Positions 7,662 to 22,381 of a stretch of 64,000 bases of DNA are shown in pieces. Both the position numbers and the translations under genes were made by a program. The DNA comes from Candidatus Omnitrophota bacterium (GTDB taxonomy: Bacteria; Omnitrophota; Gorgyraeia; Gygaellales; Profunditerraquicolaceae). The number at the start of each line of letters is the position of its first letter. Position 1 is the first letter of the stretch. The stretch covers positions 128,343 to 192,342 of the forward strand of contig JBAZTA010000004.1 of assembly GCA_041662125.1 (NCBI GenBank). The letters are read 5' to 3'. Below the pieces are notes generated by a model. That model worked only from the letters and a program-made list of their open reading frames with translations, had not been told where the DNA came from and ran no database searches.

Positions 7662-7688
7662 AAGCTCTGATTCTTTAAGGGTAAAGTT

Positions 7689-8148: not shown

Positions 8149-8220
8149 TGCCCTGTCGTCTAATTGGTAGGACTTCAGATTCTGGATCTGACTATCATGG
8201 TTCGATTCCATGCGGGGCAG
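8149..8220 (+). tRNA. tRNA-Gln (anticodon CUG)
   Basis: Hand-folded cloverleaf: acceptor TGCCCTG/CGGGGCA (U1-A72 as in bacterial tRNA-Gln), D-stem GTCT/GGAC, anticodon stem TCAGA/TCTGA with loop TTCTGGA, T-arm CATGG-TTCGATT-CCATG. Confidence 0.8.
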
Positions 8221-8242
8221 TTCTGCTTCGCCCATCAATAAG

Positions 8243-8340
8243 CAAAGCTGCGGTGGGGCTTCGCAGGAACAAGTTCTGTTCGTCGTTCAACATACAAAGC
8301 TGCGGTGGGGCTTCGCAGGAAGTGGGGGCTTCGCTTGGAA
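8243..8340 (+). repeat. tRNA-linked repeat: two direct copies of CAAAGCTGCGGTGGGGCTTCGCAGGAA plus a degenerate third
   Basis: Copies at 8243-8269 and 8295-8321. Each can form a CTGCG...CGCAG stem around the GTGGGGCTT core and is homologous to the elements after tRNA-Glu and at 43866. Confidence 0.6.
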
Positions 8341-8367
8341 GCGTTTTCTTGTTACCCTGTTTTACTA

Positions 8368-8396
8368 TTGACACCAGGCAAATAAAAAGTTATGCT
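8368..8396 (+). promoter_or_regulatory. Consensus-like sigma70 promoter for the S8 protease gene (TTGACA - 17 nt - TATGCT)
   Basis: -35 TTGACA at 8368-8373, a 17-nt spacer and -10 TATGCT at 8391-8396, about 105 nt upstream of the ATG at 8504. Confidence 0.5.
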
Positions 8397-8503
8397 TTGA
8401 TAGCACAATCCAGTCAATTGTGCGGCGTTTTAAGTTTAGTTAAAATTGGAGGTATGCGAGAAGTGTGTGCATACCTTTTTTTATTTTAAGGAGGATACAA
8501 ATT

Positions 8504-11500
8504 ATGGAGAATATAAAGAAGGCGGTATTATTAGCCGGTATTACGGCTGCGTGTTTTTTGTGTGCCCCCGCATTCGCTTTAGTTGACAATAGCCAAGCGA
8601 TAATCGAGCAGCAAACTGTTTCATCACAAGACATACAGCAACCATCCCAGCCCCAACAGCCTCAAGCCCCTGCGTTCGTCCCGGGCGAGCTTATCGTAAA
8701 GATCAAAGACGGCAAAACCATGGATGAACTCAGTGAGCTAAACACTAAATATGATGTTACTTCCACAGAAGGGATTTTCCAAAGCCCGGGTAGTCCCGAG
8801 GAAATGCTTAAGAGCCTTCAACAGAAATTAGCCGATCTTGGTTCTCAACACGACAGCTGGTATTGGCAGATGGATAAAGATTCTAAAGAATATAAGGACT
8901 ATGTCGCTAAGATAGAAGCGCAAAAAGAAACACTAAAAAGCCAAATCAGCGCCGAACAGGCACTTGTCGATCATTTAAACCAGAGACAATCCAGGGCTGA
9001 TAATACAGTAACTACTCCCAACTTAACAAACACCTATGTTTTTAAAACCAATAGCTCAATCAATATTGTCGCAATAGCAGAAGATTACTCTTCGCATCCC
9101 GCGGTAGAATACGCTGAGCCGAATTATGTGTGTAAAGTAGAGCAATCTGCTCCTATTCTTGGGCCTCCTCCTATTCCTGGCTGGCCATATGTCCTGCCTA
9201 ATGATTCGTATGTAGACCCTAACCATACTAATACCTGGACTAAAGGCGCCTGGGGACAGGCCTACGAAGACATGTGGGGCCTCAAGAAGATCCAGGCAGA
9301 TAAAGCTTGGCGATTATCGTTAGGTGAAGGGGTAATTGTGGCTGTAATTGATACCGGCGTTGACTATACCCATGAAGATATATCTGCTAATATCTGGATA
9401 AACACAAGAGAAATACCCGGCAATGGCATAGATGACGAAGGTAACGGTTATATGGATGATATAAGGGGCTGGGATTTTGTTAATGATAGTAACGACCCTA
9501 AGGATGGTTATGGCCATGGCACTCACTGCGCAGGTACTATAGCTGCCATAGGCAATAATAAAATTGGTATTATCGGGGTATCTCCCAAAGCAAAAATTAT
9601 GCCGGTAAAAGGGTTGGATGATTTTGGGTTCGGCAGTGACGCTGCATTAGCCAAAGGTATTTATTATGCCGCCAATAACGGCGCGGATATTCTAAGCAAC
9701 TCCTGGGGTGGGTCGGGAAGCAGCCAGTTAATAACAGATGCTGTTAATTATGCTTATGCTCAAGGATGCGCCGTGGTAGCATCGGCGGGTAATTCAAGCG
9801 CCGATGTTAAATATTTCTCCCCGGCTAATATTGATAAGGTTATAGCAGTCGCAGCTACCGGCCAAAATGATAAATTATGCGTTTTTTCTAACTTCGGTAA
9901 TAAAATTGATGTGACTGCGCCTGGAGGCGATGATATTCCGACGTATATTTACTCCAATTTCAATAATGTCCTTTCATTATTAGCCCCTAATTCATATCTG
10001 GCAAAAAATTATTCCGCGGATATCGTCGGGTATAAATACCTGAAATTAGCCGGCACATCCATGGCCTGCCCGCATGTTTCGGGCTTGGCGGCCCTGCTTA
10101 TAGCCAAATACCCCGCGGATACAAATAAACAGATCAGGGGCAGGATCATGGAGACCGCTGATGTATTGTCCCAGGAGCCTTTGTATTCACAGGGGCTCTT
10201 GGGGTCGGGAAGGATCAATTCTTATCGCGCCTTAAGCGAACCGTTTAAACCATACTTTAAATTTAAGGAACTGTTTCTTAAAGAGCTCACCGGAGACGGC
10301 GACCAGATACCGGAATCCAGGGAAAGAATAAAGCTCGTCATTAAACTGGAATCTATAGGCAAGGATACAAGTTCGGCGAAGTGCTCGATAAGTACAGACA
10401 GCCAGTATATTTCCTGCATAAACATTCCGGTTTCCTCGTTCTATAGGTCTCAAGACGGCACAATGGATAATTCAAACAGCCCATTTGTATTTACGATCGG
10501 CAAAGTAGAATACCAATCGCCGGTGAATATCAAGCTGACAATTAATGCCGGCGGATGTGTCCAGATGTTGAATCTAAAGATAAATTTGGGCATCAGGCAA
10601 CTGCCTATTGATTACAATACCTATAAGATTGGACGGTATTCCTTGTATAAGGATAAAATAACCTGGGATCGTACTACTGTGGATAGTCATGCCGGTTATG
10701 TGTATAGCGGAGAAATCTATCTGTATGACCTGAAGAGTAACCAGGTTAAACAAATATCCGAGAATGACGGCCGCATAAAAGCTTGGCCGGCAATGTATGA
10801 AAACAAAATCGTCTGTATGGACAAGAGCTCGCCCTATTCGAATTGGAACGTCTTCCTGTATGACCTTACCGCAAAAACAGCTACGTTCATAACCCAGGAT
10901 TCATTTAATCACCGGGATCCTTATATTTACAAAAATAAGATCGTATGGTCTGATGACCGTAACGGCAATAATGATATTTACCTGTATGATATCGATAAAA
11001 AGCAGGAGAGAAGGATCACAACGAATCCCGCCGGCCAGATCACTCCGAAAATTTACGGAAATAAGATCGCCTGGATAGATTTTCGCAATGGCCCGTATGA
11101 CTGGTATCGGTATGATATTTGTGTCTATGATTTGGATAAGAACGAAGAGAAGATGATCCCCAGGGGAGGGAGCAATGTCCTTTGGCCGATAGATATTTTC
11201 GGTAATAAGGTCGTATGGGCGGATGATAATAATATTTATCTTTACGACTTAGATAAGAATGAACAGAAACTTATCAGCTCCCGTAACTATCAGTATTATA
11301 TTACTTCTTTGCGGATCTACGGCAATAAAATAATCTGGGATGACAGCGTTTCCGGGAGTTCGCCCCAAGTATACCTTTATGATCTAAATACCAACCAAAA
11401 AAAGATGGTTACTAAAGATCAGTATGTGTTTTCACCGGTTGTTTATGCCAGGAATATTACCTGGCTTAACTGGAGCGATGATGTTTATAAGCCGCATATG

Positions 11501-11809
11501 TATATTACCGAAATTCCCGATATCACGCCTCCCATCGGCTCAATAAGAATAAATAACGGCGCTCTTTACACAAGGTCTCCCGTCGTCATGCTTAATTTAT
11601 ATGCCCAAGATGATGAAAGCGGCATGGGAAATGGCGCGCAGATGCAACTTTCTAATAACGGAACTCAATGGTCAGCTCCTGAACCATACATAGCAAGCAA
11701 ATTGTGGTGTTTGACGCCGGGGACCGGGCTAAAGATCGTATACGTTCGATTTAAAGATGTGGCGGGGAATTGGTCATGTTCCTATTTGGCATATATAAAG
11801 GTATATTAG
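8504..11809 (+). CDS. Secreted multidomain subtilisin-like serine protease (S8 family) with C-terminal beta-propeller repeats and an Ig-like domain (1101 aa)
   Basis: Signal peptide. Catalytic triad motifs VAVIDTGVD (Asp), GHGTHCAGTIAA (His) and GTSMACPHVSG (Ser). At least six repeats of type IYLYDLxxxxxxxIT/KIVWxD (PD40/TolB-like propeller blades). Terminal domain with INNGALYTRSPVVMLNL...NGTQWS (bacterial Ig-like/SbsA-like). RBS AAGGAGG before the ATG at 8504; the ORF-track start at 8465 is likely too early. Confidence 0.9.
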   Translation: MENIKKAVLLAGITAACFLCAPAFALVDNSQAIIEQQTVSSQDIQQPSQPQQPQAPAFVPGELIVKIKDGKTMDELSELNTKYDVTSTEGIFQSPGSPEEMLKSLQQKLADLGSQHDSWYWQMDKDSKEYKDYVAKIEAQKETLKSQISAEQALVDHLNQRQSRADNTVTTPNLTNTYVFKTNSSINIVAIAEDYSSHPAVEYAEPNYVCKVEQSAPILGPPPIPGWPYVLPNDSYVDPNHTNTWTKGAWGQAYEDMWGLKKIQADKAWRLSLGEGVIVAVIDTGVDYTHEDISANIWINTREIPGNGIDDEGNGYMDDIRGWDFVNDSNDPKDGYGHGTHCAGTIAAIGNNKIGIIGVSPKAKIMPVKGLDDFGFGSDAALAKGIYYAANNGADILSNSWGGSGSSQLITDAVNYAYAQGCAVVASAGNSSADVKYFSPANIDKVIAVAATGQNDKLCVFSNFGNKIDVTAPGGDDIPTYIYSNFNNVLSLLAPNSYLAKNYSADIVGYKYLKLAGTSMACPHVSGLAALLIAKYPADTNKQIRGRIMETADVLSQEPLYSQGLLGSGRINSYRALSEPFKPYFKFKELFLKELTGDGDQIPESRERIKLVIKLESIGKDTSSAKCSISTDSQYISCINIPVSSFYRSQDGTMDNSNSPFVFTIGKVEYQSPVNIKLTINAGGCVQMLNLKINLGIRQLPIDYNTYKIGRYSLYKDKITWDRTTVDSHAGYVYSGEIYLYDLKSNQVKQISENDGRIKAWPAMYENKIVCMDKSSPYSNWNVFLYDLTAKTATFITQDSFNHRDPYIYKNKIVWSDDRNGNNDIYLYDIDKKQERRITTNPAGQITPKIYGNKIAWIDFRNGPYDWYRYDICVYDLDKNEEKMIPRGGSNVLWPIDIFGNKVVWADDNNIYLYDLDKNEQKLISSRNYQYYITSLRIYGNKIIWDDSVSGSSPQVYLYDLNTNQKKMVTKDQYVFSPVVYARNITWLNWSDDVYKPHMYITEIPDITPPIGSIRINNGALYTRSPVVMLNLYAQDDESGMGNGAQMQLSNNGTQWSAPEPYIASKLWCLTPGTGLKIVYVRFKDVAGNWSCSYLAYIKVY

Positions 11810-11927
11810 TTATCGCCACTTAAATCTCTTCCTACCAATATTATAGAGATATATAGCTTTTCAAAGCCTAATTTCTTGATATTTGCTTAATTTCCTATAT
11901 AATGAGCTTGCTAGTCAAGGAGAAATT

Positions 11928-12437
11928 ATGCGTAAAATCATTTTAATGATTCTTTTCTTGTCTTTTTCATCGGCTTGTTTTGCCCAGCCTCAAGAACCTG
12001 CTTCCTTAACCAAAGGCAACGCTATTATTATGCGTATTTATGAAGAGATTCAAAAACTCAAAGGCAGCTATCACAAATTAGTTTCTTTCGAGCAGAATGC
12101 TGTCAAAGAGGGAGATTATGAAAGCAGCGTTCGACTTGTTTCAAGCAGGTCTGTCCAGGATAAGAAAACTTTAGCCATTAAATATGGGGAGCCGTGGAAA
12201 AAAGATCCTTACGCAAGAAATGATGGTGCTGTTTATGTTGAGGTTTATTTTACTTCAAACCCTTTTACTAAAGAATCAGCGTTGGTGCAGCAAACCAAGG
12301 ATTTCCAGCCAAAAGAAATATATGTGAGTGGCTCAGGTGTTTATTTGGAGTATTATATTGTTACTGATGAAGAACTGGGCGCTGTCTTGGAGGGTATTAT
12401 CAGGGGCGCGGTGGGAAAAATCGCAGATTTTAAATAA
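11928..12437 (+). CDS. Secreted hypothetical protein (169 aa)
   Basis: ATG at 11928 with RBS AAGGAGAAATT; signal peptide MRKIILMILFLSFSSACFA. Confidence 0.55.
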   Translation: MRKIILMILFLSFSSACFAQPQEPASLTKGNAIIMRIYEEIQKLKGSYHKLVSFEQNAVKEGDYESSVRLVSSRSVQDKKTLAIKYGEPWKKDPYARNDGAVYVEVYFTSNPFTKESALVQQTKDFQPKEIYVSGSGVYLEYYIVTDEELGAVLEGIIRGAVGKIADFK

Positions 12438-12479
12438 TCATGGCATACTTAAATATTCAATGAAATAAGAAAGGTTTTT

Positions 12480-12806
12480 ATGGTAAAAAAGAATTGTTGG
12501 GAAGTTAAAAAATGCGGAAGAGAGCCCGGTGGTGCCAAAGTGAAAGAATTGGGTGTCTGTCCTGCGGCGATTGAAGGCAGCGTCAACGGCGTTAATTGCG
12601 GCAAAAATGCCGGCAGGTGCTGTTGGGCAGTGGCGGGGACTTTTTGTGACGATAAAGTTTCTGGTTCTTTTGCTTCCAAAATAACATCGTGTGTTAATTG
12701 CGATTTCTTTAAAACGGTTGTTTTAGAAGAAGGGCAAGACTTAAAAACGACAAAGGATATTTTAGAAAAATTGTATAGCCAAAAGAAGAGTAACAAAAAA
12801 GATTGA
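12480..12806 (+). CDS. Small cysteine-rich protein with two CW motifs (two-CW-like domain), 108 aa
   Basis: Motifs NCWEVKKCG and RCCWAVAGTFC plus additional CxxC (CVNC). No signal peptide. Likely metal- or redox-binding. Confidence 0.5.
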   Translation: MVKKNCWEVKKCGREPGGAKVKELGVCPAAIEGSVNGVNCGKNAGRCCWAVAGTFCDDKVSGSFASKITSCVNCDFFKTVVLEEGQDLKTTKDILEKLYSQKKSNKKD

Positions 12807-12841
12807 TTCTTGATTTCTAAAAGGATATAATAACAACACTT

Positions 12842-12922
12842 GCGCGGGTGGTGGAATGGCAGACACGCAAGCATGAGGGGCTTGTGCCGAAAGGTATGGG
12901 GGTTCAACTCCCCCCCTGCGCA
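12842..12922 (+). tRNA. tRNA-Leu (anticodon GAG), type II with long variable arm
   Basis: Collinear with E. coli tRNA-Leu: acceptor GCGCGGG/CCTGCGC, anticodon stem CAAGC/GCTTG with loop ATGAGGG, variable arm CCGAAAGG, T-arm GGGGG-TTCAACT-CCCCC. Confidence 0.85.
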
Positions 12923-12934
12923 TAAAATATTCAG

Positions 12935-12980
12935 AAGGCTTACCAAGTCTTGTTTTAAGGCGGGGTAAGCCTTTTTTCTT
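12935..12980 (+). terminator. Rho-independent terminator after tRNA-Leu
   Basis: Stem AAGGCTTACC / GGTAAGCCTT followed by TTTTTTCTT. Confidence 0.7.
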
Positions 12981-12990
12981 CCTTTACTTT

Positions 12991-13217
12991 TAGCACCGTC
13001 TGCTCAGCTCATCTTGTACCGTCTGCAAACCTAATCTTGCACCTGTACCTGCACCTAGAGCACCTTGCCAGTAGTATCTTTAAATCTACCTTAAAGATCC
13101 CGTTTTCAAACGATTGTTGTATCAGAGGAATGGATAAGTATATCTCTTTGATACTTAGGGGACAGGTGCAATCTTGGAAAAAGGGCAGGTGCCCGATTAA
13201 CTTTGCACCTGGTGCTA
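12991..13217 (+). mobile_element. Non-autonomous miniature derivative (MITE-like, ~227 bp) of the IS200/IS605-like element at 17997-18665; lacks the transposase
   Basis: Left end TAGCACCGTCTGC...CTTGCACCTGT and right end CTTAGGGGACAGGTGCAATCTTGGAAAAAGGGCAGGTGCCCGATTAACTTTGCACCTGGTGCTA are about 90% identical to the ends of the full element. It has the same terminal inverted repeat TAGCACCG/CGGTGCTA. The internal segment corresponds to the tnpA 5'UTR. Confidence 0.7.
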
Positions 13218-13467
13218 TTGGTTATAGCTTTCTATTAGAAAACGCTTTCAAAATCCCGCAATATAGCATTGAAAAAAGCAATTTCTTAAGGCATAATTAT
13301 CATACTATATAATTAGTTTGCACAGTCCGGGTCAAGTTGTGCAAACGTCTCTAAAATTATACGATGGAGGTACTGGAGCGATCATTTCGTTCTTAGGTGC
13401 CTCTTTTTTGGTTTATGGGACATACGTAATGCAGATAAAATACAATTTCAATAAAAAGGAGAGATAC

Positions 13468-16400
13468 ATGTTTAGGAGAACAATTTCAATTTTTCTTGTT
13501 GCTTGTTTTTTATTCCAGCAGGTTGGTTTTGCGCAGGTGGCCTCCGAAATAAATATTGCCGGTTATTTAAGCCAGATCCGCACGAGTATCGCGCCGGACA
13601 AGTTTCGCCCTATGCACTTGCGGTATTTTTCCTATGACAACCAGAATAATAATTTTAAGCTTCTTGTTGATCGAGGCGACGCGAAAGATCTCAAAGGAGA
13701 TCAGCTGGAAACATCGAGCCGCCAGCTTTTAAGTTATTTTTTGGTGGGAGTAACCCTTCCGAATGAAAATTTTTGGGTAAACTTAAGGCCTGACAGGGAA
13801 GATCAGATCATTGATGACGCATTGGGCACAACCGATGTGGGAAAGATCATGCTGGAGGCAGACCTTCAGCTTAAAAAAGACACTGCGAAATTTACTTCAC
13901 CGGAAACCGCGGAAGGAAAAGAATATTGGGATAAGTTGTATCAGAAAGCTGGAGAGCTTTTTGGCGCGGATAATGTTACGATACCGACTCTCACTCGTCC
14001 CTGGATAGTCCCCAGCGAAGTCATTATACGGGAAGGTTCAGGAAGCGCATATGTTTATAAAGCTACGCTGAAAGTTATGTTGGAACAGGACCATATAAAA
14101 AACTCGGAGATGTATAATTTTAGCGATGAAAAAGCAAAGGCGTTAAATGAGTATTCTTCTGAGTTGATCCGCCAAATCATTATTCCTAAACTTACAAAAG
14201 AGGTCAATATTTCAAAACGTTACGCATCTCTGCGCCAGGTGTTTTATTCTTTAGTATTATCTCGGTGGTTTAAAGAACGCTTTAGCGGCCAATCCGGTCT
14301 TTATGCGTCTTTGATCGATCAAAAAAATCTCGCGGGATTGACTTCTCAGGAAAACTGGTCAAAATCCGTATACTTTCAGGCATATAAAAAGTCGTTTCAA
14401 GATGGTGAATATAATATTGCGAAGCAGGTGCATACTCCTACCGGGCAGGTCATAAGGACTTATTTTAGCGGAGGTATCGCATTGCAAGAGTCATTGCCCA
14501 ATGTTCAGACGGCAGGAAGTCCGATAGGGACATTTTCTTCTCCCAACGCAGAGCTGCCGAAATTATTGATAAACAGAGGCCAAATTGTGATCAGTGGTCA
14601 TGAAGGCCAGGGGAATGATCCGTTAGGCGGCGCTTATGCTGTTAATGATAATTCTGCTGGTTCTCCTGTGCGGATAGATGATCAAGAGAAAAAAGATATT
14701 CCTTCCGCTTCGCCGATTGACGCGCAGGTATCTACCGATAAGCTTACCTGGAAAGAGGCATTTAATATCGCGGGGTTCTACCGTCCTTTGACTGCCTGGA
14801 GACTGATGAAATTCGACAATCAAAGCGATGCGTTTTTAAATGATGATTTATTGTTTCAGGTCGCATACTTTTTAATGCCTAGGATAAATAAACCGGAAGC
14901 AGCCGCAGTATTGAAAAGATGGATTGAAAGAGGCGAGAGTATAAAATCATTGTTGGTGATACATAGGATTTCCGATTCCGAACAAATTGCCTATGAGCAA
15001 ATTGGAGCCGAGCCGTATCAGCGGATGCTTGTTGAAGCTGTGGAAAGCGGAAATGAAGTATTACAACGCAAAGCAGCTATAGATGTGTATCTTCCCGATG
15101 AGCTGAAACGGGCGCTGTTTGAAAAAGGGAAAGAATACCTTATTGGTAATAAATCCGGCCTGCCGATTGATCTCCAAGAAAAAATAGCCTTATCAGATAA
15201 TGCGAGCCTTAAGCAGCAGTTGGCTTATCAAGAATATACCCATCCCGATGTTTTAAGTTTGTTGGCAAAAGATGAAGATGAGGAAGTCTTACGGGCAGTG
15301 GCATTTCATGAAAAAACAAAGCCGGCAGATTTACAATCATTGGTGGGCAAGCACAGCAACAGGATCGCATCAGCGCTTATACATAATAAAGCGGTGGGGT
15401 ACTCGCTTTTTCAAGAGTGGCTTAAAGAGGAACAAGAAATCAGGCGTCAAAAAACTCTGGAAGAACGAGCAAAAATGCTTACCGCATACGAGGCAAAGAT
15501 AAAGGAACGCGGAGAGCCGTCTAGAGCAGAAATTACAGTGTATGCGGAAGGTGATTGGAGCGAATATAAGCAATTTGTGTTGCCGCTTGCCCCGTTGCAT
15601 AACATTGCGGGCATCGCAGGGTTGATACCGCATAAAAAAGCGGTAAAATTCGTGATAGAAGGAGCAAAGCCGGATATCGAAAACTTTGTAGAAGCGCTTA
15701 GAAAATGGGCAGTGATACAAGATATCGAAGTTAAATGGGGGGAGTATAAAAAAGAATTCTTTGTATTTGGCATCGTAGAAAAAAGCAGAAGGCAATATTA
15801 CTACAGCGATGAAAGCGGCTCCCGCGTTATCGATGATAGTTGGGGGTTAGGCGATTACGTATTGGCAGGGCTTGTGCTGTATACGTTATTTGGTCAAGAT
15901 AATGAGACAACCACGGAGAGCAATATTTCTCCTGCAGTGGGAGGTTTTGAATTCGATAGCCCTGAGGATAAACCTCAATCATCCGTTCATGAAACAGAAG
16001 AAACAAGCAGTTGGGAAGCTCCTGAGCCAAGCGGAAGTAATGACTCTAGTTCTCCCATTACCGCACATCAAGAAATAGCAAAAAGCCTGGAGCAGACAGG
16101 TATTACGTATAGTTATTTAGAGGGGATCACTCGATTTAAGGGGAGACCTCCTTTTGATCTCGGTAAGCCGATCGACGTAGGGGAAAGGCATTATTGGGTA
16201 AAGCTAAACCGTACGCTGTTGGGTGATTTCAAGATAGTCATTGAAGGGTTTAAAGAAGATTTTTTCAAAAACGGCATGCATCTTGAGAAATATTTGACTA
16301 TTAAAGTGACTGAAGATGGGATAAGCGTTACAGGCAGTCTTCAGCTGTCAATAAAAGAGTTAGACAAATTTGTGGCTGATATTAAGCAGTCGGTTAGCGT

Positions 16401-17925
16401 TATGGATACCCCTGTCGCTTCTACACGAGAATTGGAGGAAAGCCTGACGCAGGCAGGCCTTACTTACGGTTATCTGGATAAAATAAACAAGAATAAAGGA
16501 GCGCTTCCTGAGGGTGAGTACGGGAATGTAAAATTATTCAGCTGGGCCGGATATATTATGCCTTATTTAATAAGAGTAAAGGCTGGCGGCATTCTGAATA
16601 ATAATTTTGTAATTCGGGTTGGCCAAATGACTTCAAGCGCGGGTTGGATTATTGATATGTTTGATTTTGCTGAATGCTTCACGATTACCGTGCATCGAGA
16701 TGGCCGCTTGGTGGTCTCTGGTAATGTTCATCCACCAGATGCAGTTGATTTTGCAGCTGATATGATGAAGGTGTTAAAAGATTTTAATTCTTCCAGTTCG
16801 GCGATTGCAGCGAATCAAAAGTCCGGACAATCGTTCCTCAGTTCTGTAGGGACAAATCTAACGTATTATTGGCTGAGGGTGAAGCTGTTCAGGGAGTATC
16901 AAAGATTCGAAAAAGAGTATGGATTTAATAAGAACCAGTTAGAAACAATATTTACCCGTTTGGCTCAAAAGCCCAATGCAAAGGAAGTGGTTGCCCAACT
17001 TATGAGATTTGCGTATTACGCATCTGTGGCTGGGTTTTTAGATGAGCAGAGAATGTTATATTATACCGCGCTTGATGATTGGGATGCGGATGGTTATGCT
17101 GACGGCCCGCATTACGCTCTGGATAAAAATATTTTACATGCTATCGCCAATGAATTAACAGTAGCGCAAGATCAGGGATCAATAATACAAAGAATGATCG
17201 CTATTGATAATGAAAATAAAGAAGCCAAATTAAATGTTACAGAAAGGCAGAATTTAGTGCTGAATGTTTTGAAGCAACGAGTAACATATGAAGTGATCAA
17301 AGCCCGTCTTGAGAGCGTCCCGAGTAGTGAATTCTTTGCTGAAACTAATAAGCTGCGAGAGGAAGGTGTTTTGCCGAAAGACAGTGATGTAGAGAGTTGG
17401 AACGCGCTCAATGCATTGGCCTATGAAGATCCTACGCTTACCACTGCCATGGGCAGGTTTTTGGATGATAATAGACATAGCGCAGAACAAATAGCAAAAG
17501 AATCAAAAGGCGAAAGCGGTGTTTCTCCGGTCTCCGCTTCTTCTGCGATGAAAGAGGAAACTAAAGATGTTCCGGGAACTCCCGGCGGTATTGATTTCCG
17601 CGTTATGGATATCAAATACCAACCGTTGGGGCTTTTTAAAGGGCTCAATTATACGCTTCCTATATTGAATCAGGCAGAGCTCGATAAGATCAACCTTGAT
17701 GAGGAGATAAAACAGATACAAATAATGGTTGAAAGCGGTATTATTCCTTCTGGGCGGAGAATCAAAGAATTAGTGGCGGCGTCTTCTCAAAAGGGGGAAT
17801 TGAATAAAAGAATGAATGACCTCTTGTTATGCCTGGTAGATATTTGCAGGTTGGAAGAAGAGAATGTTTCTGAAAGCGCCCCTGAATTGAGAGAGGCGCT
17901 GGTTATTCTGGATACTGTTGGATAA
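13468..17925 (+). CDS. Giant secreted protein of unknown function (~1485 aa)
   Basis: Uninterrupted 4.6-kb ORF. The best start is the ATG at 13468 (RBS AAAAAGGAGAG), followed by a signal peptide MFRRTISIFLVACFLFQQVGFAQVA. No known catalytic motif recognised; Asp/Glu-rich internal segments; a terminator follows. Confidence 0.75.
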   Translation: MFRRTISIFLVACFLFQQVGFAQVASEINIAGYLSQIRTSIAPDKFRPMHLRYFSYDNQNNNFKLLVDRGDAKDLKGDQLETSSRQLLSYFLVGVTLPNENFWVNLRPDREDQIIDDALGTTDVGKIMLEADLQLKKDTAKFTSPETAEGKEYWDKLYQKAGELFGADNVTIPTLTRPWIVPSEVIIREGSGSAYVYKATLKVMLEQDHIKNSEMYNFSDEKAKALNEYSSELIRQIIIPKLTKEVNISKRYASLRQVFYSLVLSRWFKERFSGQSGLYASLIDQKNLAGLTSQENWSKSVYFQAYKKSFQDGEYNIAKQVHTPTGQVIRTYFSGGIALQESLPNVQTAGSPIGTFSSPNAELPKLLINRGQIVISGHEGQGNDPLGGAYAVNDNSAGSPVRIDDQEKKDIPSASPIDAQVSTDKLTWKEAFNIAGFYRPLTAWRLMKFDNQSDAFLNDDLLFQVAYFLMPRINKPEAAAVLKRWIERGESIKSLLVIHRISDSEQIAYEQIGAEPYQRMLVEAVESGNEVLQRKAAIDVYLPDELKRALFEKGKEYLIGNKSGLPIDLQEKIALSDNASLKQQLAYQEYTHPDVLSLLAKDEDEEVLRAVAFHEKTKPADLQSLVGKHSNRIASALIHNKAVGYSLFQEWLKEEQEIRRQKTLEERAKMLTAYEAKIKERGEPSRAEITVYAEGDWSEYKQFVLPLAPLHNIAGIAGLIPHKKAVKFVIEGAKPDIENFVEALRKWAVIQDIEVKWGEYKKEFFVFGIVEKSRRQYYYSDESGSRVIDDSWGLGDYVLAGLVLYTLFGQDNETTTESNISPAVGGFEFDSPEDKPQSSVHETEETSSWEAPEPSGSNDSSSPITAHQEIAKSLEQTGITYSYLEGITRFKGRPPFDLGKPIDVGERHYWVKLNRTLLGDFKIVIEGFKEDFFKNGMHLEKYLTIKVTEDGISVTGSLQLSIKELDKFVADIKQSVSVMDTPVASTRELEESLTQAGLTYGYLDKINKNKGALPEGEYGNVKLFSWAGYIMPYLIRVKAGGILNNNFVIRVGQMTSSAGWIIDMFDFAECFTITVHRDGRLVVSGNVHPPDAVDFAADMMKVLKDFNSSSSAIAANQKSGQSFLSSVGTNLTYYWLRVKLFREYQRFEKEYGFNKNQLETIFTRLAQKPNAKEVVAQLMRFAYYASVAGFLDEQRMLYYTALDDWDADGYADGPHYALDKNILHAIANELTVAQDQGSIIQRMIAIDNENKEAKLNVTERQNLVLNVLKQRVTYEVIKARLESVPSSEFFAETNKLREEGVLPKDSDVESWNALNALAYEDPTLTTAMGRFLDDNRHSAEQIAKESKGESGVSPVSASSAMKEETKDVPGTPGGIDFRVMDIKYQPLGLFKGLNYTLPILNQAELDKINLDEEIKQIQIMVESGIIPSGRRIKELVAASSQKGELNKRMNDLLLCLVDICRLEEENVSESAPELREALVILDTVG

Positions 17926-17952
17926 AAAAGTGCAGGATCTTGTTTAAAAAGG

Positions 17953-17990
17953 AAATCCCCGGTTCATAATACGAGCCGGGGATTTTTTTA
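17953..17990 (+). terminator. Rho-independent terminator after the giant gene
   Basis: AAATCCCCGGTTCATAATACGAGCCGGGGATTTTTTTATTT. Confidence 0.7.
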
Positions 17991-17996
17991 TTTCGT

Positions 17997-18665
17997 TAGC
18001 ACCGTCTGCAAACCTAATCTCGCACCTGTCCTCTACATAAGCTTTCTGTTATTTTAAAAAAATCTTGTTAGAAAATCGGTTTTCAATCGTCTATTGTATT
18101 AGGAGGTGATATTTATGGTTAATGTCAAAAGATTGCTATTAGATGGCTGCTGTTACCATATAATAACCAGGGGAAACCAAAAGCAAAAGGTTTTCAGATG
18201 TGATGAGGATAATTTGGAATATTTAAAGCTCTTAAAACGCTTTAAGCGAAAATACAAATTCCATTTATATGCGTATTGCCTTATGCCAAATCATGTTCAC
18301 CTGGTCGGAGAAATAAACGACACTCCTTTGATATCCAACTTCATGCATGATTTAAGCAGGACCTATACACTCTATTTTAACAGTAAATACGAACTAGTTG
18401 GCCATCTCTGGCAAGGCAGATTCAAAAGTAAGATCATTTGTAAAGATAGATATTTATTTGATTGTCTTAGATATATTGAATACAATCCTGTGAGAGCAAA
18501 CTTGGCACAGAACGTCTCAGAATACAAGTGGAGTAGTTATCAAGGAAGGGTATTAGACGAACAAAATGGGATAATTGATGAAATGCCACCTTTCTAAAAC
18601 TCTTAGGGGACAGGTGTAATCTTAGAAAAAGGGCAGGTGCCCGATTAGCTTTGCACCCGGTGCTA
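17997..18665 (+). mobile_element. IS200/IS605-family (RAYT-like) insertion element, ~670 bp, with 8-bp terminal inverted repeats TAGCACCG/CGGTGCTA
   Basis: Contains tnpA (18115-18597) and subterminal complementary boxes GCACCTGTCC / GGACAGGTG. The right end abuts the stop codon of the REC-GGDEF gene. Confidence 0.75.
18115..18597 (+). CDS. tnpA: IS200/IS605-family Y1 (HUH) transposase TnpA / REP-associated tyrosine transposase-like
   Basis: HUH motif PNHVHLV, conserved YxxxW/Q region (GHLWQGRF) and typical ~160-aa length. RBS AGGAGG 8 nt before the ATG at 18115. Confidence 0.85.
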   Translation: MVNVKRLLLDGCCYHIITRGNQKQKVFRCDEDNLEYLKLLKRFKRKYKFHLYAYCLMPNHVHLVGEINDTPLISNFMHDLSRTYTLYFNSKYELVGHLWQGRFKSKIICKDRYLFDCLRYIEYNPVRANLAQNVSEYKWSSYQGRVLDEQNGIIDEMPPF

Positions 18666-19595
18666 TTAAGAGACGCGTTTGTCTTTTACGTAGTTACTGC
18701 GTTCTAAATTCTTGGCGTAGGATTTGAGTTCCGCGCCGATCTCGCCTATTTGCGCGACGTGTTCTATGACGCGGAATTCGTTAGTTACTACCCCGATAGA
18801 GATTGATAAGAGTGATATGTTTTGTACCTTACCTTGGCGGTCTTTAGCGACAATAAATCCGCGGTTACGGTCGCTCTCGTTATAAAAAGAAGGGACCGTT
18901 TTATCGAAATCATCAATGATCTTTTTACAAATAGCGTCAGAAGTAGGTATTGAGGTAACGACAATATAATCGTCTCCTCCAATATGGCCGATAAAATCAT
19001 CGGGATTTCCCACGGTTTGGACTGCCCGGATCAGGATGCGGGCAGTTTCTCTGATCACTTCATCTCCGTGCTCAAATCCATAAATATCGTTATATGCCTT
19101 GAATTTATTCAGATCAATATAACAAACCGCAAATTGTGCTTTGTTTGCCAGCTTGAGAGAAAACTCGTTTAAAATGGAAACATTGCCCGGCAGGCGGGTG
19201 AGGGGATTGGCTTCTAAGTCGATGGAGGTGCGCCGTAAGATCATACGGATGTGCGCGAGCAATTCTTTTGGTTCGAAAGGTTTAACGATATAATCATCGG
19301 CACCCGCGTCTATGCCGTCTAATTTATCGGTAATGTCTCCTCTGCCCGTTACCATGATGATAGGCAGATGCCGCAGGAGCAGGTCTTTTTTGATCAGGCG
19401 GCAGACTTCCCTGCCGTCAAGGATAGGCATCTGGTAATCCAGTAAAACCAGGTCTGGGGATTTTGTGTGGATAGCTTTAAGGGCTTCTTCTCCATTTGCG
19501 GCTTCACTGACATCGTAATTTTCCTCTGAAAGCGTAAGTTTCAGCACATCCCGGATATCTGGGTCATCATCAACAATAAGGATTTTTATCGGCAT
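18666..19595 (-). CDS. Response regulator with REC and GGDEF-type domains (non-canonical GGDDY signature, no RxxD I-site)
   Basis: REC: ILIVDDDPDIRDVLK...LLDYQMPILDG...K. GGDEF fold: DPLTRLPGN, YIDLNKFKAYNDIYGFEHGDEVI, HIGGDDYIVV, SISIGVV. Confidence 0.85.
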   Translation of the reverse strand: MPIKILIVDDDPDIRDVLKLTLSEENYDVSEAANGEEALKAIHTKSPDLVLLDYQMPILDGREVCRLIKKDLLLRHLPIIMVTGRGDITDKLDGIDAGADDYIVKPFEPKELLAHIRMILRRTSIDLEANPLTRLPGNVSILNEFSLKLANKAQFAVCYIDLNKFKAYNDIYGFEHGDEVIRETARILIRAVQTVGNPDDFIGHIGGDDYIVVTSIPTSDAICKKIIDDFDKTVPSFYNESDRNRGFIVAKDRQGKVQNISLLSISIGVVTNEFRVIEHVAQIGEIGAELKSYAKNLERSNYVKDKRVS

Positions 19596-19623
19596 AATAT
19601 AAATATATCTTGTGGTTGAGTTG

Positions 19624-21123
19624 TTATGCTGGCTGCGGCAACGTAAAAGAAAAAGTCGATCCTGCTCCCAGCTTGCTGTTGACCCAAATCTTTCCTTTAT
19701 GCGCTTCGATAATATGTTTTACCAGGGCAAGGCCTAATCCGGTGCCTTTGACCTGTTGGTTGATCAAATTGTCGACGCGGTAAAATTCTTCGAATATCGC
19801 TTTTTGCGCTTCCAGGGGGATCCCGGAGCCGGTATCGGTAATGTCGACTTGAATATAGTTGTTTTCTATTTTATTGCAGGTAACGGTAATAGAGCCCTGT
19901 TGAGGGGTGAATTTGATGGCGTTGTTGATAATATTGATGAATACCCTTTGTAATTGGTTGCGGTCCGCTAAAACCGTGATGGTATCATCGGGTATTTTGT
20001 TAGAAAGGTCTATCTGTTTTTCTTTTGCCTGGACCCCGAGAAGATCAATGACTTCATCAGCAGTTTTCTTTAAAGTCTGTTCTACGAGCTTCATGGTGAC
20101 TTTTCCAGACTCGATTCGTGATATATCCAGAAGGTCATTAACGAGTTGCACTAATTCATCGCTGTGCCGGTTTATTTTTTCAAGGCGCAGGTGGACTTCT
20201 TGCGGCAGAGCCCCCAGTTTCCCCGCGAGTAAAATTGAGGCATATCCTTTGATCGAGGTTAACGGAGTCCTGAGTTCATGTGAAACGCTGGAAACAAAAT
20301 CGGTTTTTCTCTGGCTGATATTTTTTACTTCTTCTAAGACGCGGGATAATTCCCGTGTCCTTTCTTCTACCCGTTTTTCCAGTTCCTGATGGGCATGCCA
20401 GGTTTTCTCGAAGAGGCGCGCGTTTTCCAGCGATTGCCCGATTTGATTGGCTAATATCGAGATAGATTCTTGGTCCCCTTCGGTGATAAGGGTATTTTTA
20501 TTGTTAATTCCGACAAAAAGGAATCCTTGGCTTCCGTCTTTTGGCAAGAGAGGGGCAATGACAAATAGGTTTGCCTTGAAAGCAAGGTTGATTTGTTCTT
20601 TAAAAGCATTTGTTTCTGATGAAGAGAGGGAAGAGAGGATCCTTTCTTTTTTAATGAGTTCCGTAAATTCTCCTGTATGCGATGCCACCAAAGAACAAAC
20701 TGCTTGTGTTTCGGCTTCCTGGTATCCGAGGTTTAATTGTATCTCAAACCCTTTTTTTTCTTCATCCCAGAGGAATGCCAGCGCTTTTTCAAAACCGAGG
20801 TCCTCCAGGTAGGAGGAATCAATCCTTTGAAAAATCTGGCTTTCTTCCAGGGTAGTGCTTATTTCCCGTGAGAGCTGCTGCAGGGCATATAACCCGGTTA
20901 TTTTCTTGTCAAGCTCTTCCTGCGTCCTGTTTAATTCCAAGTCCGTGCGTACAACGAGCTTGGACTGTTCGTCCATTTCTTCCAATGATTTATTTAATTT
21001 TTCTACTTCTACCTGTAATTGTCCGGCCTTGTCGATTTTTAAAACCAGCATGATGCTGATCGTGACAATGACCAGGATGCTGATAAATCCACCGACATTC
21101 AACACTATTTCTGGGTTATACAT
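19624..21123 (-). CDS. Sensor histidine kinase (TM + coiled-coil + GAF-like + HisKA + HATPase_c)
   Basis: H-box VSHELRTPLTSIKGY; N, G1 and G2 boxes (NLINNAIKFT, DTGSGIP, GTGLGLALVK). Confidence 0.9.
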   Translation of the reverse strand: MYNPEIVLNVGGFISILVIVTISIMLVLKIDKAGQLQVEVEKLNKSLEEMDEQSKLVVRTDLELNRTQEELDKKITGLYALQQLSREISTTLEESQIFQRIDSSYLEDLGFEKALAFLWDEEKKGFEIQLNLGYQEAETQAVCSLVASHTGEFTELIKKERILSSLSSSETNAFKEQINLAFKANLFVIAPLLPKDGSQGFLFVGINNKNTLITEGDQESISILANQIGQSLENARLFEKTWHAHQELEKRVEERTRELSRVLEEVKNISQRKTDFVSSVSHELRTPLTSIKGYASILLAGKLGALPQEVHLRLEKINRHSDELVQLVNDLLDISRIESGKVTMKLVEQTLKKTADEVIDLLGVQAKEKQIDLSNKIPDDTITVLADRNQLQRVFINIINNAIKFTPQQGSITVTCNKIENNYIQVDITDTGSGIPLEAQKAIFEEFYRVDNLINQQVKGTGLGLALVKHIIEAHKGKIWVNSKLGAGSTFSFTLPQPA

Positions 21124-21124
21124 A

Positions 21125-22381
21125 TTAACCGCCGATATTTAAGATGGTAATGCTTTGATTGTGCAAATATACTTTTCCTAAATAATTTTCCGCTGTCAAT
21201 GGCGCAACTTCTCCGTGGGTGTAAAGGCCTAAAATAGGCGTGTTTTGCCCAAAGCCCTTTTTTATGATTTCCAACTCTTTTTCTGCCCCCCGCCTCAGCA
21301 GTAAATACCGCGACAATGAACTAAACGCAATAATAAAATTGTTTGCGTTTTTCTTATGGTGTTCTGTCATAGGATTATAGATGCTTTTTTTGGAATCGTC
21401 AATGGCCTGCTGGGTAGCCGCCAGGCAGGTCTCTTTGGTGCTGATCATGATGCGTACCATGCTTCCTTGAGGCACATCTCCCTGGAAACGTAAAGAGCCG
21501 TCGTTGTCTACTGAGAGTACGTTACGTAACAGGTATTCTTTTTCTCCGGGCAGGTAGATACCGATCGGATAAAAAATAGAAATGTGTTTTAATTCACGCT
21601 TTAATTTTAATAAATTATACCCCAGGTATGATTCGTAGAACTGCGCCGCCGGCCTATCGTCAATGGTGACGACAATATTGCCTTGCGAGAGGGTAACGGT
21701 ATGCGGTTTTCCTAACGGTTTCCAGCCATGTTTTATGCCCAACCCGAAATTCAATTTCCCTCCCCAGAGCATTCCGATGCAACCGTCGGAAAATGTTTCC
21801 TGGTTATAATAGAGGTTTGTTTTTATTTGGGTTAAATTATCTGCAGCCGAACCGCCGATAAAGGGGAAGCTTTTTCCCAGTTTTTCCTGAAGCCCTGAAA
21901 TAAGGTTTGCGCTTTCTTCAATGAGGGCGTCTGAAAGGATGATGCTGAAGGCTCGGCGCATATTCCCGAATCCCGCGAGTAATTGTTCTCCTAATTCCTG
22001 TCCCGCGGAAAACCCGGATTTGTTTTTTATGTTTTTGACGGCGGAAGTATAAAAATGCACCCCTTCGGGGAAGCTGATCAGCATAATTGCCAGCCCATGC
22101 TTTAAAATGCCCTGGTTTGTCATGATTGCTTCGCCGCTTGAGCCGATGAGGGTCACTCCCGGCAAGTGGTTGGAAATAGTTTTTAAAAGCGTGAAACAGG
22201 AAAGGTCTATTGAACTAAAGCAAATCGCTAAATCGATCTTATTTTTGTTTAAATGTAATGCCGCTTGCATGGTTGCTTCTTTTGCGGCATTCGCGGGATT
22301 TTTATCCAGACTTACGCCTAAGCCTATATTCATATATGTTCGTATCGTTGGTGTCGTTACTATCCTGCCTTTGTCAACCAA
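21125..22381 (-). CDS. Putative FIST-like sensory protein, first gene of the sensor-HK-RR operon (418 aa)
   Basis: Size and two-lobed composition are consistent with FIST_N/FIST_C sensors; the gene is translationally coupled to the downstream HK. No motif-level proof. Confidence 0.4.
   Translation of the reverse strand: MVDKGRIVTTPTIRTYMNIGLGVSLDKNPANAAKEATMQAALHLNKNKIDLAICFSSIDLSCFTLLKTISNHLPGVTLIGSSGEAIMTNQGILKHGLAIMLISFPEGVHFYTSAVKNIKNKSGFSAGQELGEQLLAGFGNMRRAFSIILSDALIEESANLISGLQEKLGKSFPFIGGSAADNLTQIKTNLYYNQETFSDGCIGMLWGGKLNFGLGIKHGWKPLGKPHTVTLSQGNIVVTIDDRPAAQFYESYLGYNLLKLKRELKHISIFYPIGIYLPGEKEYLLRNVLSVDNDGSLRFQGDVPQGSMVRIMISTKETCLAATQQAIDDSKKSIYNPMTEHHKKNANNFIIAFSSLSRYLLLRRGAEKELEIIKKGFGQNTPILGLYTHGEVAPLTAENYLGKVYLHNQSITILNIGG

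What the first reader, a model, noticed from the sequence alone, without database searches (positions are those of the whole stretch)
12842..18665. Giant (~1485 aa) secreted protein gene bracketed by two direct-orientation copies of one IS200/IS605-like element (a MITE and a full copy), downstream of tRNA-Leu
Immediately after tRNA-Leu and its terminator sits a 227-bp transposase-less derivative (12991-13217). It shares both ends, the 8-bp terminal inverted repeat TAGCACCG/CGGTGCTA and the tnpA 5'UTR with the complete element at 17997-18665. The full copy carries a Y1 HUH transposase (PNHVHLV). The two copies have the same orientation and flank a single 4.4-kb ORF for a signal-peptide-bearing protein with no recognisable domains.

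This composite-transposon-like layout suggests the giant gene is mobile or recently acquired cargo, or that recombination between the copies could delete or invert it. The full copy also abuts the stop codon of the REC-GGDEF gene.
Basis: seen in the sequence. Interest (0 to 1): 0.62.

Follow-up and report, generated by a model that had tools for sequence, protein, structure and literature searches.

The report
Gene inserted between two REP-transposase elements
In an uncultured Omnitrophota bacterium, a large lineage-specific gene lies between a small single-strand transposase element and a gene-less miniature copy of it, in a spot beside a tRNA gene that often collects insertions; the layout is real, but nothing shows the three parts move together.

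Summary
A 227-bp copy without a gene (12991-13217) and a 669-bp copy with a Y1 HUH gene (17997-18665) share both ends, lie in the same orientation and bracket a 1485-aa ORF. An independent assembly has the same layout.

The element is not a classic IS200/IS605. The protein matches REP-associated tyrosine transposases (RAYT). Its ends are 40-60-nt inverted pairs of REP-like units, and the short copy is a REPIN/MITE-like derivative.

In 80 related loci the tRNA-Leu(GAG)/REC-GGDEF spacer is 200 bp or less in 37. None carries this gene. Others hold unrelated insertions, including LAGLIDADG genes and other Y1 elements.

Its GC and codon usage are native. It belongs to a family of about 7,500 clusters, so far seen only in Omnitrophota, with fixed N- and C-terminal modules. 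Five other family loci have no REP or RAYT nearby. No second copy of the composite, no target duplication and no circle junction was found, so "composite transposon" is unproven.

The mobile-element part is a new member of a known kind. The protein family, whose members often embed complete glycolytic enzymes, is the more surprising by-product.

The parts
12841..12923 (+). tRNA-Leu(GAG), one edge of the conserved backbone
   Evidence: ARAGORN and Rfam tRNA at 46.3 bits. In 37 of 80 related loci it lies convergent, 200 bp or less from the REC-GGDEF stop.
12935..12973 (+). Terminator-like hairpin plus T-run after the tRNA; a remnant of the original spacer
   Evidence: Inverted repeat I11 and terminator scan at 12957-12973.
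12991..13217 (+). Short ORF-less copy (REPIN/MITE-like). Left end 12991-13046 has two REP-like units (the long form). A 5'UTR remnant lies at about 13085-13140. Right end is 13154-13217.
   Evidence: Repeat families D1 and D2; alignments. As single-stranded DNA it folds into a long hairpin, -33.7 kcal/mol, z = -3.4. REP-profile nhmmer E = 3.8e-21.
13269..13297 (+). Promoter-like site of the giant gene, outside the short copy
   Evidence: Sigma-70 scan, 10 of 12 matches. Consensus match only.
13468..17925 (+). 1485-aa ORF of the N/C-cassette family, so far seen only in Omnitrophota. Leader plus N-module is aa 1-345 (13468-14502). The middle has one partial relative. The GGIDFR motif is at aa 1373. 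The C-terminal helical bundle is aa ~1402-1485.
   Evidence: Translation. Identical to NCBI MAG protein WDL87_07735. N- and C-modules are 44-69% identical to homologs. 7518 representatives. AF2 models. A search with aa 401-1340 found only the protein itself; P0002 shares part of the middle, 46% identity over aa 1-767.
17949..17989 (+). Intrinsic terminator of the giant gene
   Evidence: 17-pair stem followed by a T-run; inverted repeat I2.
17997..18665 (+). Full RAYT-type element. Left end 17997-18035 (short form, 23 bp missing), 5'UTR with RBS 18036-18114, Y1 ORF, right end 18602-18665.
18115..18597 (+). RAYT-like Y1 HUH transposase gene (160 aa). HUH motif = HVH. The catalytic Tyr in RYIEYNPV aligns with Y115 of 4ER8.
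   Evidence: Pfam Y1_Tnp 1e-16. NCBIfam REP_Tyr_transpos 78.9 bits (cutoff 80) against IS200 21.8. PDB 4ER8 alignment. No other sequence at 90% identity or more in the database.
18666..22381 (-). Conserved FIST-like / histidine kinase / REC-GGDEF operon, the other edge of the backbone (REC-GGDEF 18666-19595, HK 19624-21123, FIST-like 21125-22381)
   Evidence: Pfam. The gene order is conserved in every related locus long enough to show the upstream genes. FIST domains appear in the L014 ortholog.

Best explanation
The window comes from an Omnitrophota metagenome-assembled genome. Its conserved backbone is tRNA-Leu(GAG), convergent with a FIST/HK/REC-GGDEF operon. The spacer between them is an insertion hotspot.

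In this lineage the spacer holds three things.
1. A REP/RAYT-type unit: a single-copy Y1 HUH gene of the REP-associated tyrosine transposase kind, flanked by inverted pairs of REP-like units.
2. A 227-bp derivative of the same repeat family that has lost the ORF. It resembles a REPIN or MITE, and its ends track those of the resident RAYT.
3. Between them, a 4.46-kb gene with its own promoter and terminator. It encodes one member of a very large, native protein family, so far seen only in Omnitrophota.

Shown:
- The parts and their homology.
- The empty site in relatives.
- The RAYT-only state in L014. L020 also has the RAYT element next to REC-GGDEF, but its contig ends 164 bp beyond the RAYT start, so what lies upstream there cannot be seen.
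- The native composition of the giant gene.

Inferred:
- The RAYT element arrived first, and the giant gene arrived later in this lineage.
- The most likely route is recombination at REP sequences. A DNA segment carrying the gene plus one REP element from elsewhere in the genome, possibly as a circle, integrates into the resident element. That automatically leaves the gene bracketed by two same-orientation copies.
- The alternative, given as rival 3, is separate insertions into the hotspot.

The bracket is therefore a footprint of how the gene got there. It is not a demonstrated composite transposon. Recombination between the 29-nt and 66-nt homologies could delete the gene.
For: - Repeat anatomy.
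- RAYT identity.
- Single copy at 90% identity or more.
- Short copy folds as a hairpin.
- Independent assembly is identical.
- 80 related loci: the spacer is 200 bp or less in 37. No N-module hit anywhere in up to 10 kb of flank, and no REP remnants in the empty sites.
- L014 has tRNA-Leu, then the RAYT element, then REC-GGDEF, with nothing else. The closest relative, L020 (90% over HK+REC-GGDEF), has the RAYT element next to REC-GGDEF, and a different sequence upstream of its left end.
- Hotspot contents in relatives: LAGLIDADG genes, another Y1_Tnp, a nucleotidyltransferase/HTH gene.
- Native GC and codon usage of the giant gene.
- Own promoter and terminator.
- Family size and fixed architecture.
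- The two window copies share derived substitutions in both ends relative to L020.
Against: - The rest of the source genome could not be searched, so neither a donor locus nor a dispersed REP population is shown.
- The L020 contig ends 164 bp beyond the RAYT start, so whether the nearest relative has the giant gene is not strictly known.
- The homologies available for recombination are short; the longest perfect runs are about 20-22 nt.
- The RAYT score is 1.1 bits below NCBI's curated cutoff.
- L014 is not sister to the window lineage. The shared RAYT position may therefore reflect independent insertions rather than an ancestral state.
- RAYTs at 64-71% identity sit at unrelated loci in L018 and L019. 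This RAYT lineage therefore looks more mobile than textbook domesticated RAYTs.
Confidence: 0.6

Rival explanations
1. Functional composite transposon. The RAYT acts on the outer left end (12991) and outer right end (18665), excises the whole 5.7-kb block as a single-stranded circle and reinserts it, so the giant gene is true mobile cargo.
For: - Both outer ends are intact and correctly oriented. The outer left end is the complete long form.
- The RAYT has the HUH motif and the catalytic Tyr.
- The block fills the spacer exactly, from the tRNA terminator to the REC-GGDEF stop.
- The gene is absent from this site in all relatives.
- From my own knowledge, not checked here: IS200/IS605 enzymes need only a left and a right end on one strand.
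Against: - No second instance exists. The protein occurs only on this contig and an identical re-assembly.
- There is no target-site signature.
- Five other family members have no REP or RAYT within 10 kb.
- From my own knowledge: single-strand transposition efficiency falls steeply with length, and in-vivo transposition by RAYTs has not been demonstrated.
- L014 shows that the RAYT element exists at this site on its own.
Confidence: 0.12
2. The giant gene is ancestral at this locus and was deleted in relatives by recombination between the two direct copies. L014 and L020, with one element each, would be the deletion products.
For: - A crossover between direct repeats would leave exactly one hybrid element between tRNA-Leu and REC-GGDEF, as seen in L014.
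- What lies upstream of the element in L020 cannot be seen.
Against: - 37 relatives spread over the whole clade have a spacer of 200 bp or less with no REP remnant.
- L014 is not sister to the window lineage.
- No relative anywhere has a family member within 10 kb of this operon.
- No ortholog of the whole middle region is known; only P0002 shares part of it.
Confidence: 0.08
3. Coincidental stacking. The RAYT element, the miniature copy and the giant gene arrived by three unrelated events in a hotspot, and the repeats played no role in bringing the gene. For example, the miniature copy was inserted later at the preferred site just downstream of the tRNA.
For: - The spacer has been hit many times independently by different elements.
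- Three different Y1 elements each start 22-67 nt after the tRNA 3' end in non-sister lineages, which suggests a target preference.
- The interior of the short copy is much more diverged than its ends, so it is not a fresh duplicate.
Against: - It needs a 4.8-kb gene to land exactly between two adjacent elements, or a third event to rebuild the bracket.
- It offers no mechanism for how the gene arrived.
Confidence: 0.2

Closest known systems
E. coli TnpA-REP / REP-BIME system (RAYT; PDB 4ER8; PMC3479197, PMC8266576)
   Same: - A Y1 HUH protein of about 160 aa, with the HUH motif and the catalytic Tyr in a YIxxNPV context.
- 4ER8 is the only solved structure hit by sequence.
- The gene is flanked by inverted palindromic REP-like units.
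- The gene is single-copy.
   Different: - Sequence similarity is weak: E = 2e-3 to 4ER8, and 1.1 bits below the NCBIfam cutoff.
- No GTAG tag; the termini read TAGCACC...GGTGCTA, with a CGTC in the left end.
- A high-copy dispersed REP population is not shown for this genome.
- Homologs sit at different loci in different genomes, which is more like an insertion sequence.
REPINs of Pseudomonas fluorescens SBW25 (PMC3116915, PMC3337134)
   Same: A non-autonomous element made of two inverted REP-bearing arms that fold into a hairpin. Its ends match those flanking the genome's RAYT.
   Different: The copy here is 227 bp and still carries a remnant of the transposase 5'UTR, so it is a MITE-style internal-deletion derivative rather than a minimal REP doublet. 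A minimal 87-bp doublet of the family does exist in another Omnitrophota MAG, L009. Copy number is unknown.
IS200/IS605 family (IS608, ISDra2; PMC6006769)
   Same: - Pfam Y1_Tnp domain.
- A small element of about 0.7 kb.
- No target-site duplication visible.
- By inference, single-strand hairpin-guided chemistry.
   Different: - The IS200 equivalog model scores only 21.8 bits against a cutoff of 55.
- The ends are long imperfect inverted repeats, not distinct left-end and right-end subterminal hairpins.
- There is no tnpB.
- The transposase gene is single-copy.
MITE- or IS-bracketed composite units (for example Tn10-type composites and integron mobilisation units flanked by two MITEs; from my own knowledge)
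   Same: Two same-family elements in direct orientation bracket a passenger gene that has its own promoter and terminator.
   Different: Those use DDE transposases and show target-site duplications around the whole unit and repeated occurrence. Here the enzyme is a Y1 HUH protein, there is no duplication, and only one occurrence is known.

Membership tests
IS200/IS605 insertion sequence | Encodes a Y1 HUH transposase (Pfam Y1_Tnp) | tested here: met
   PF01797, E = 1e-16, 61.6 bits against a cutoff of 23.
IS200/IS605 insertion sequence | The transposase is of the IS200 TnpA type (NCBIfam NF033573 equivalog) | tested here: not met
   21.8 bits against a cutoff of 55. The RAYT model scores 78.9.
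IS200/IS605 insertion sequence | Distinct subterminal hairpins at the left and right ends, without terminal inverted repeats | tested here: not met
   - The ends are mutually inverted over about 40-60 nt.
- Of the six end segments folded on their own (two on both strands), only the short copy's right end folds better than shuffles (z = -2.3).
- The others have z between -1.4 and +0.2.
IS200/IS605 insertion sequence | Several near-identical copies per genome | tested here: inconclusive
   No other protein at 90% identity or more in a database of 5.8 billion sequences that includes this MAG. Only 64 kb of DNA could be scanned.
REP/RAYT system | RAYT-type protein (NCBIfam NF047646; HUH plus Tyr in YIxxNPV) | tested here: inconclusive
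   - 78.9 bits against a cutoff of 80.
- The only PDB sequence hit is TnpA-REP 4ER8.
- HVH is present, and the Tyr aligns to Y115.
REP/RAYT system | The gene is flanked by REP sequences in inverted orientation | tested here: met
   Two units on each side in canonical copies. Seen in the window, L014, L018, L019 and L020.
REP/RAYT system | Dispersed extragenic REP/REPIN population in the same genome | not testable with these tools
   - The source genome is not in genome contigs.
- In the 64-kb window there is only the one extra copy.
- Solo intergenic copies exist in other Omnitrophota MAGs: L019 (two), L009 and L005.
REP/RAYT system | Single copy, vertically inherited (domesticated behaviour) | tested here: inconclusive
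   - Single copy.
- RAYT divergence tracks that of its neighbours in L020: RAYT 86%, HK 87%, REC-GGDEF 95%.
- But L014 is not sister, and similar RAYTs sit at other loci.
REPIN / MITE (non-autonomous partner) | No ORF; two inverted ends that match an autonomous partner and fold into a hairpin | tested here: met
   - Ends are 94-97% identical to the full copy.
- A 5'UTR remnant is present.
- Single-stranded DNA fold of -33.7 kcal/mol, z = -3.4, matched or beaten by 0 of 200 shuffles.
Composite transposon | Two same-family elements with intact outer ends bracket the cargo | tested here: met
   Outer left end at 12991 (long form) and outer right end at 18665.
Composite transposon | Evidence of movement as a unit: a second occurrence, a target duplication around the unit, or a circle junction | tested here: not met
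   - The protein is found only on this contig and an identical re-assembly.
- The flanks CTTTACTTT and TTAAGAG show no duplication.
- Reads were not available to look for junctions.
tRNA-linked integrative island | An integrase gene and a direct repeat of the tRNA 3' end at the far border | tested here: not met
   No other ORF of 100 aa or more apart from the giant gene and the RAYT in 12.9-18.7 kb, except overlapping frames. The only tRNA-derived repeat is a 19-nt match at 79% inside the giant ORF (D10).

The most novel reading that the evidence does not exclude
The bracket could be a working or recently working REP/RAYT-driven gene-capture unit. In that case a RAYT and its REPIN-like partner, a class usually regarded as domesticated and not known to carry passengers, moved a host gene into a tRNA-adjacent hotspot. 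Such REP-mediated shuffling might then be one engine behind the diversification of the N/C-cassette protein family. That family has about 7,500 clusters, and its members often embed whole glycolytic enzymes between a conserved leader/N-module and a C-terminal helical bundle.
Probability: 0.1. Interest if true: 0.75.

Novelty: new member of a known kind. Interest (0 to 1): 0.42.

Why it matters
For mobile-element biology:
- This extends REP/RAYT-type Y1 elements, and a MITE/REPIN-like derivative, to Omnitrophota.
- It gives a clean natural example of a host gene sitting between an autonomous copy and a miniature copy, with many empty-site relatives for comparison.
- The locus suits a test of whether REP elements can translocate genes.

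For Omnitrophota biology:
- The locus documents a recurrent insertion hotspot between tRNA-Leu(GAG) and a conserved signalling operon.
- It draws attention to a protein family I could not find described anywhere. The family is very large, has invariant N- and C-terminal modules and carries variable, often enzymatic, inserts.

Tried and rejected
- Scan of genome contigs with the end motif. The source genome is not in the collection. Of 12 hits, 10 were single matches in non-Omnitrophota genomes: nine look like chance, and L002, a Planctomycetales-labelled MAG, later matched the right-end profile at E = 2e-9. The other two were small solo elements in other Omnitrophota MAGs.
- Same motif in viral contigs: five single matches, not followed up.
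- N-module in viral contigs: one UViG-labelled contig, probably cellular. I did not examine its genes.
- Look-up of the same-MAG paralog P0029, and of genes at the window edges, to reach more of the source genome. These were not on record or returned only a 1.8-kb contig.
- Search with the middle of the giant protein (aa 401-1340): no homolog but itself.
- Rfam on 12400-19000: only the tRNA, so no riboswitch or known sRNA lies in the 250-nt leader or in the element UTR.
- Pfam and NCBIfam on the giant protein: only a sub-threshold acylphosphatase-like stretch at aa 700-769. I did not rely on it.
- PDB sequence search with the giant protein: nothing meaningful.
- tRNA-island reading (integrase plus att repeat): rejected.
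- Assembly chimera: rejected.
- Literature: no paper found on the N/C-cassette family or on enzyme fusions in Omnitrophota.

Full report
**1. Observation.**
- ARAGORN and Rfam place tRNA-Leu(gag) at 12841-12923. A terminator-like hairpin and T-run follow at 12935-12973.
- The repeat finder reports two direct families linking 12991-13219 with 17997-18667. One is a 29-nt left-end stretch at 97% identity. The other is a 66-nt right end at 94% (alignment).
- A degenerate 21-nt motif taken from the ends (GCAAASYTAATCNNGCACCTG) occurs four times in the 64-kb window, only at the four ends. 0.04 are expected by chance.
- The ORF 18115-18597 (160 aa, PNHVHLV) is a Pfam Y1_Tnp protein (1e-16).
- The ORF 13468-17925 (1485 aa) has a GGAG ribosome-binding site, a promoter-like site at 13269-13297 and a strong terminator at 17949-17989. 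It has no Pfam family above threshold.
- The right end of the full copy stops at 18665, and the TAA stop of the convergent REC-GGDEF gene is 18666-18668.
- A contig assembled independently from SRR18595301 (Logan) is 100% identical to 12865-19659. The tRNA, short copy, gene, full copy and REC-GGDEF order is therefore not a chimera.

**2. What the repeated element is.**
The protein is not an IS200-type TnpA.
- NCBIfam's REP-associated tyrosine transposase model scores 78.9 bits (cutoff 80). The IS200/IS605 model scores 21.8 (cutoff 55).
- The only solved structure hit by sequence is E. coli TnpA-REP, 4ER8. The HUH motif is conserved, and the Tyr of RYIEYNPV aligns to Y115.

The ends are not an 8-bp inverted repeat.
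- The reverse complement of the right end aligns with the left end over about 40 nt: TAGCACCG..TGCAAA.CTAATC..GCACCTG.CC.
- Canonical copies carry two such REP-like units on each side. This is seen in the short copy here and in L018 and L020. L019 also has REP-type ends on both sides.
- The window's full copy lacks 23 bp of the left end, lying between two ACCGTCTGC repeats.

The 227-bp copy keeps a recognisable remnant of the transposase 5'UTR and start region. As single-stranded DNA it folds into one long hairpin (-33.7 kcal/mol, z = -3.4). It is therefore an ORF-deleted, REPIN/MITE-like partner.

A profile of right ends was searched over 934 kb, comprising the window and 99 loci.
- It finds the family at RAYT flanks and as solo intergenic copies in other Omnitrophota MAGs. 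These include an 87-bp doublet between two genes in L009, two sites in L019 and one in L005.
- It also finds one copy in L002, a Planctomycetales-labelled MAG, at E = 2e-9.
- It finds no other copy in the window.

The RAYT has 1,953 database homologs. Every source-given name among the top 120 is Omnitrophota, and most of these are about 160 aa. None is 90% or more identical to it.

**3. Comparative test of the "cargo" idea.**
I used the REC-GGDEF protein to fetch 80 related loci from metagenomes, at 69-95% amino-acid identity.
- The FIST-like/HK/REC-GGDEF gene order is conserved in every locus long enough to show the upstream genes.
- tRNA-Leu(gag) lies convergent within 200 bp of the REC-GGDEF stop in 37 loci. 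It lies at 201-1000 bp in 9, and at 1.2-2.8 kb in 3.
- Twelve loci have a different arrangement, and 19 have too little flank.
- No locus has any hit to the giant protein's N-, middle or C-parts within up to 10 kb.
- No empty site contains REP remnants.

The larger spacers hold unrelated things. These are LAGLIDADG endonuclease genes in three loci, a different Y1_Tnp with its own inverted ends (L085), a nucleotidyltransferase/HTH gene, small lipoprotein-like ORFs and others. The spacer is an insertion hotspot.

Two relatives have a homologous RAYT element there.
- L014: tRNA-Leu, 28 nt, the element, then REC-GGDEF, whose stop codon lies in the element's terminal CTA.
- L020, the closest relative: 90% identity over HK+REC-GGDEF, RAYT 86%. 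Its contig ends 164 bp beyond the RAYT start. The 20 nt upstream of its left end are not the giant-gene terminator.

In a neighbour-joining tree, the window and L020 are sisters, but L014 is not. RAYTs at 64-71% identity sit at unrelated loci in L018 and L019. The element lineage is therefore mobile over long times and may prefer this site.

**4. Is the giant gene foreign?**
No.
- Its GC is 0.426 and its GC3 is 0.406. The window medians are 0.428 and 0.442. Its codon usage is among the closest to the pooled window genes.
- The RAYT gene itself is AT-richer, at 0.35.

The protein is identical to the NCBI MAG protein WDL87_07735 (Candidatus Omnitrophota). It has hundreds of homologs, and every source-given name among them is Omnitrophota.
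- All share an N-terminal leader (M..RKI.SL.LSF.LLFQQ.GFAQ) and a module of about 340 aa at 56-70% identity.
- All but a few also share a C-terminal module that begins with GGIDFR about 113 aa from the end.
- The middles vary in length and content.
- An exhaustive search finds 7,518 representatives of 50%-identity clusters, with the N-module at the N-terminus in all 150 listed hits.

In many members the middle contains complete enzyme domains.
- PGK in P0070 (residues 393-808) and in P0056, which also carries enolase.
- GAPDH in P0039.
- FBPase and TIM in P0119.
- GPI in P0006.
- Guanylate kinase in P0013.

The window's member has a largely orphan middle. A search with aa 401-1340 found only the protein itself. 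P0002 is 46% identical over aa 1-767, so it shares part of the middle.

AlphaFold models are confident for the N-module (pLDDT 78.7) and for a C-terminal helical bundle (above 90). Neither has a Foldseek match in the PDB.

Five other family loci, about 90 kb in total, have no REP-profile hit, no RAYT and no tRNA. The four of them checked for flanking direct repeats have none. One sits among housekeeping genes. The association with REP elements is specific to this locus.

**5. Mechanism.**
Shown:
- A RAYT/REP unit and a matching miniature copy, in direct orientation.
- A self-contained gene between them.
- An otherwise short spacer in relatives.
- A RAYT-only state in L014. L020 has the element next to REC-GGDEF, but its upstream side is unseen.

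Inferred, about 0.6 for the overall reading: the RAYT element was resident first. The gene then arrived in this lineage from within an Omnitrophota genome.

My preferred route is recombination at REP sequences. A segment or circle carrying the gene and one REP element integrates into the resident element. That yields the observed bracket in a single step.

The ends of the two window copies share derived substitutions relative to L020, although their interiors are much more diverged. This fits ends that co-evolve with, or are converted against, the resident RAYT.

The main rival is independent stacking in a hotspot (0.2). A true RAYT-driven composite gets 0.12, and ancestral presence with deletion elsewhere gets 0.08.

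The direct orientation permits deletion of the gene by recombination, but not inversion. The longest perfect homologies are only about 20-22 nt.

**6. Comparison with known systems and verdict.**
The element works like, and most resembles, REP/RAYT systems (E. coli TnpA-REP; Pseudomonas REPINs; PMC3116915, PMC5581495, PMC3479197).
- Membership is not fully established. The score is borderline, and the genome-wide REP population could not be tested.
- It fails two defining features of IS200/IS605 proper.
- It meets the structural definition of a composite transposon but not the behavioural one.

I rate it a new member of a known kind, of moderate interest.

The protein family uncovered on the way is, as far as I could find, undescribed. 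It deserves separate study.

Noticed in passing
window 13468-17925, and proteins P0006, P0013, P0039, P0056, P0070, P0119: - A huge protein family, so far seen only in Omnitrophota, with 7,518 representatives of 50%-identity clusters.
- It has an invariant leader plus an N-module of about 340 aa, and a GGIDFR motif plus a helical-bundle C-module.
- Many members embed complete PGK, GAPDH, enolase, TIM, FBPase, GPI or guanylate kinase domains between the two modules.
- Neither module has a PDB fold match, and I found no paper describing the family.
   Followed up: partly
window 8148-12840: - The stretch between tRNA-Gln(ctg) at 8148-8221 and tRNA-Leu holds a 1114-aa subtilase and two small ORFs (184 and 108 aa).
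- None of these has a homolog in any of the 80 related loci.
- In those loci tRNA-Gln lies roughly 10 bp to 5.7 kb beyond tRNA-Leu.
- This is a second variable spacer in the same backbone.
   Followed up: partly
L057, L072 and L088 (spacer after REC-GGDEF): LAGLIDADG-type endonuclease ORFs (215-224 aa) occupy the same tRNA-Leu/REC-GGDEF spacer in three relatives. In L072 a second copy of the tRNA 3' end (GGTGAGGGTTCAACTCC...GCGCACCA) follows the ORF. This suggests an intron-like or homing insertion at the tRNA.
   Followed up: partly
L085 (819-bp spacer after REC-GGDEF): A different Y1_Tnp/RAYT-like gene (230 aa, 40% identity to the window's) with its own inverted ends (GGGGTCAGAATTATT / AATAATTCTGACCCC) sits in the same spacer, about 25 nt after the tRNA-Leu 3' end. 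Y1 elements may prefer this site.
   Followed up: no
L020 4156-4169 and 3421-3434: The last 14 nt of the contig, beyond the RAYT left end, exactly repeat the REC-GGDEF 3' coding end that also follows the right end. This could be a tandem or circular form, a long target duplication or an assembly artefact.
   Followed up: no
L009 4891-4977; L019 14725-14782 and 19642-19747; L005 7131-7165; L002 5523-5582: Solo intergenic REP/REPIN-like copies of the same end family occur in other Omnitrophota MAGs. L009 has an 87-bp doublet in the 96-bp gap between two adjacent same-strand genes. One copy is in a MAG labelled Planctomycetales.
   Followed up: partly
window 1001-8000, 38001-44000 and 53001-55000: Stretches of clearly lower GC (0.31-0.39, against about 0.43 elsewhere), with genes of GC3 0.26-0.38. 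These may be islands or lineage-specific gene blocks.
   Followed up: no
L109 9635-9713: Two tandem 35-nt palindromic repeats (TGGCTGCGCCCTTTCTGCGCAGCACCCCAGCTTAA) lie upstream of another family member. They look like a different REP-like family.
   Followed up: no
L019 2058-2534 and 10001-10483: One Omnitrophota contig (GCA_028717245.1) carries two diverged RAYT-like genes 8 kb apart, at 51% and 64% identity to the window's. This points to several RAYT lineages in one genome.
   Followed up: no
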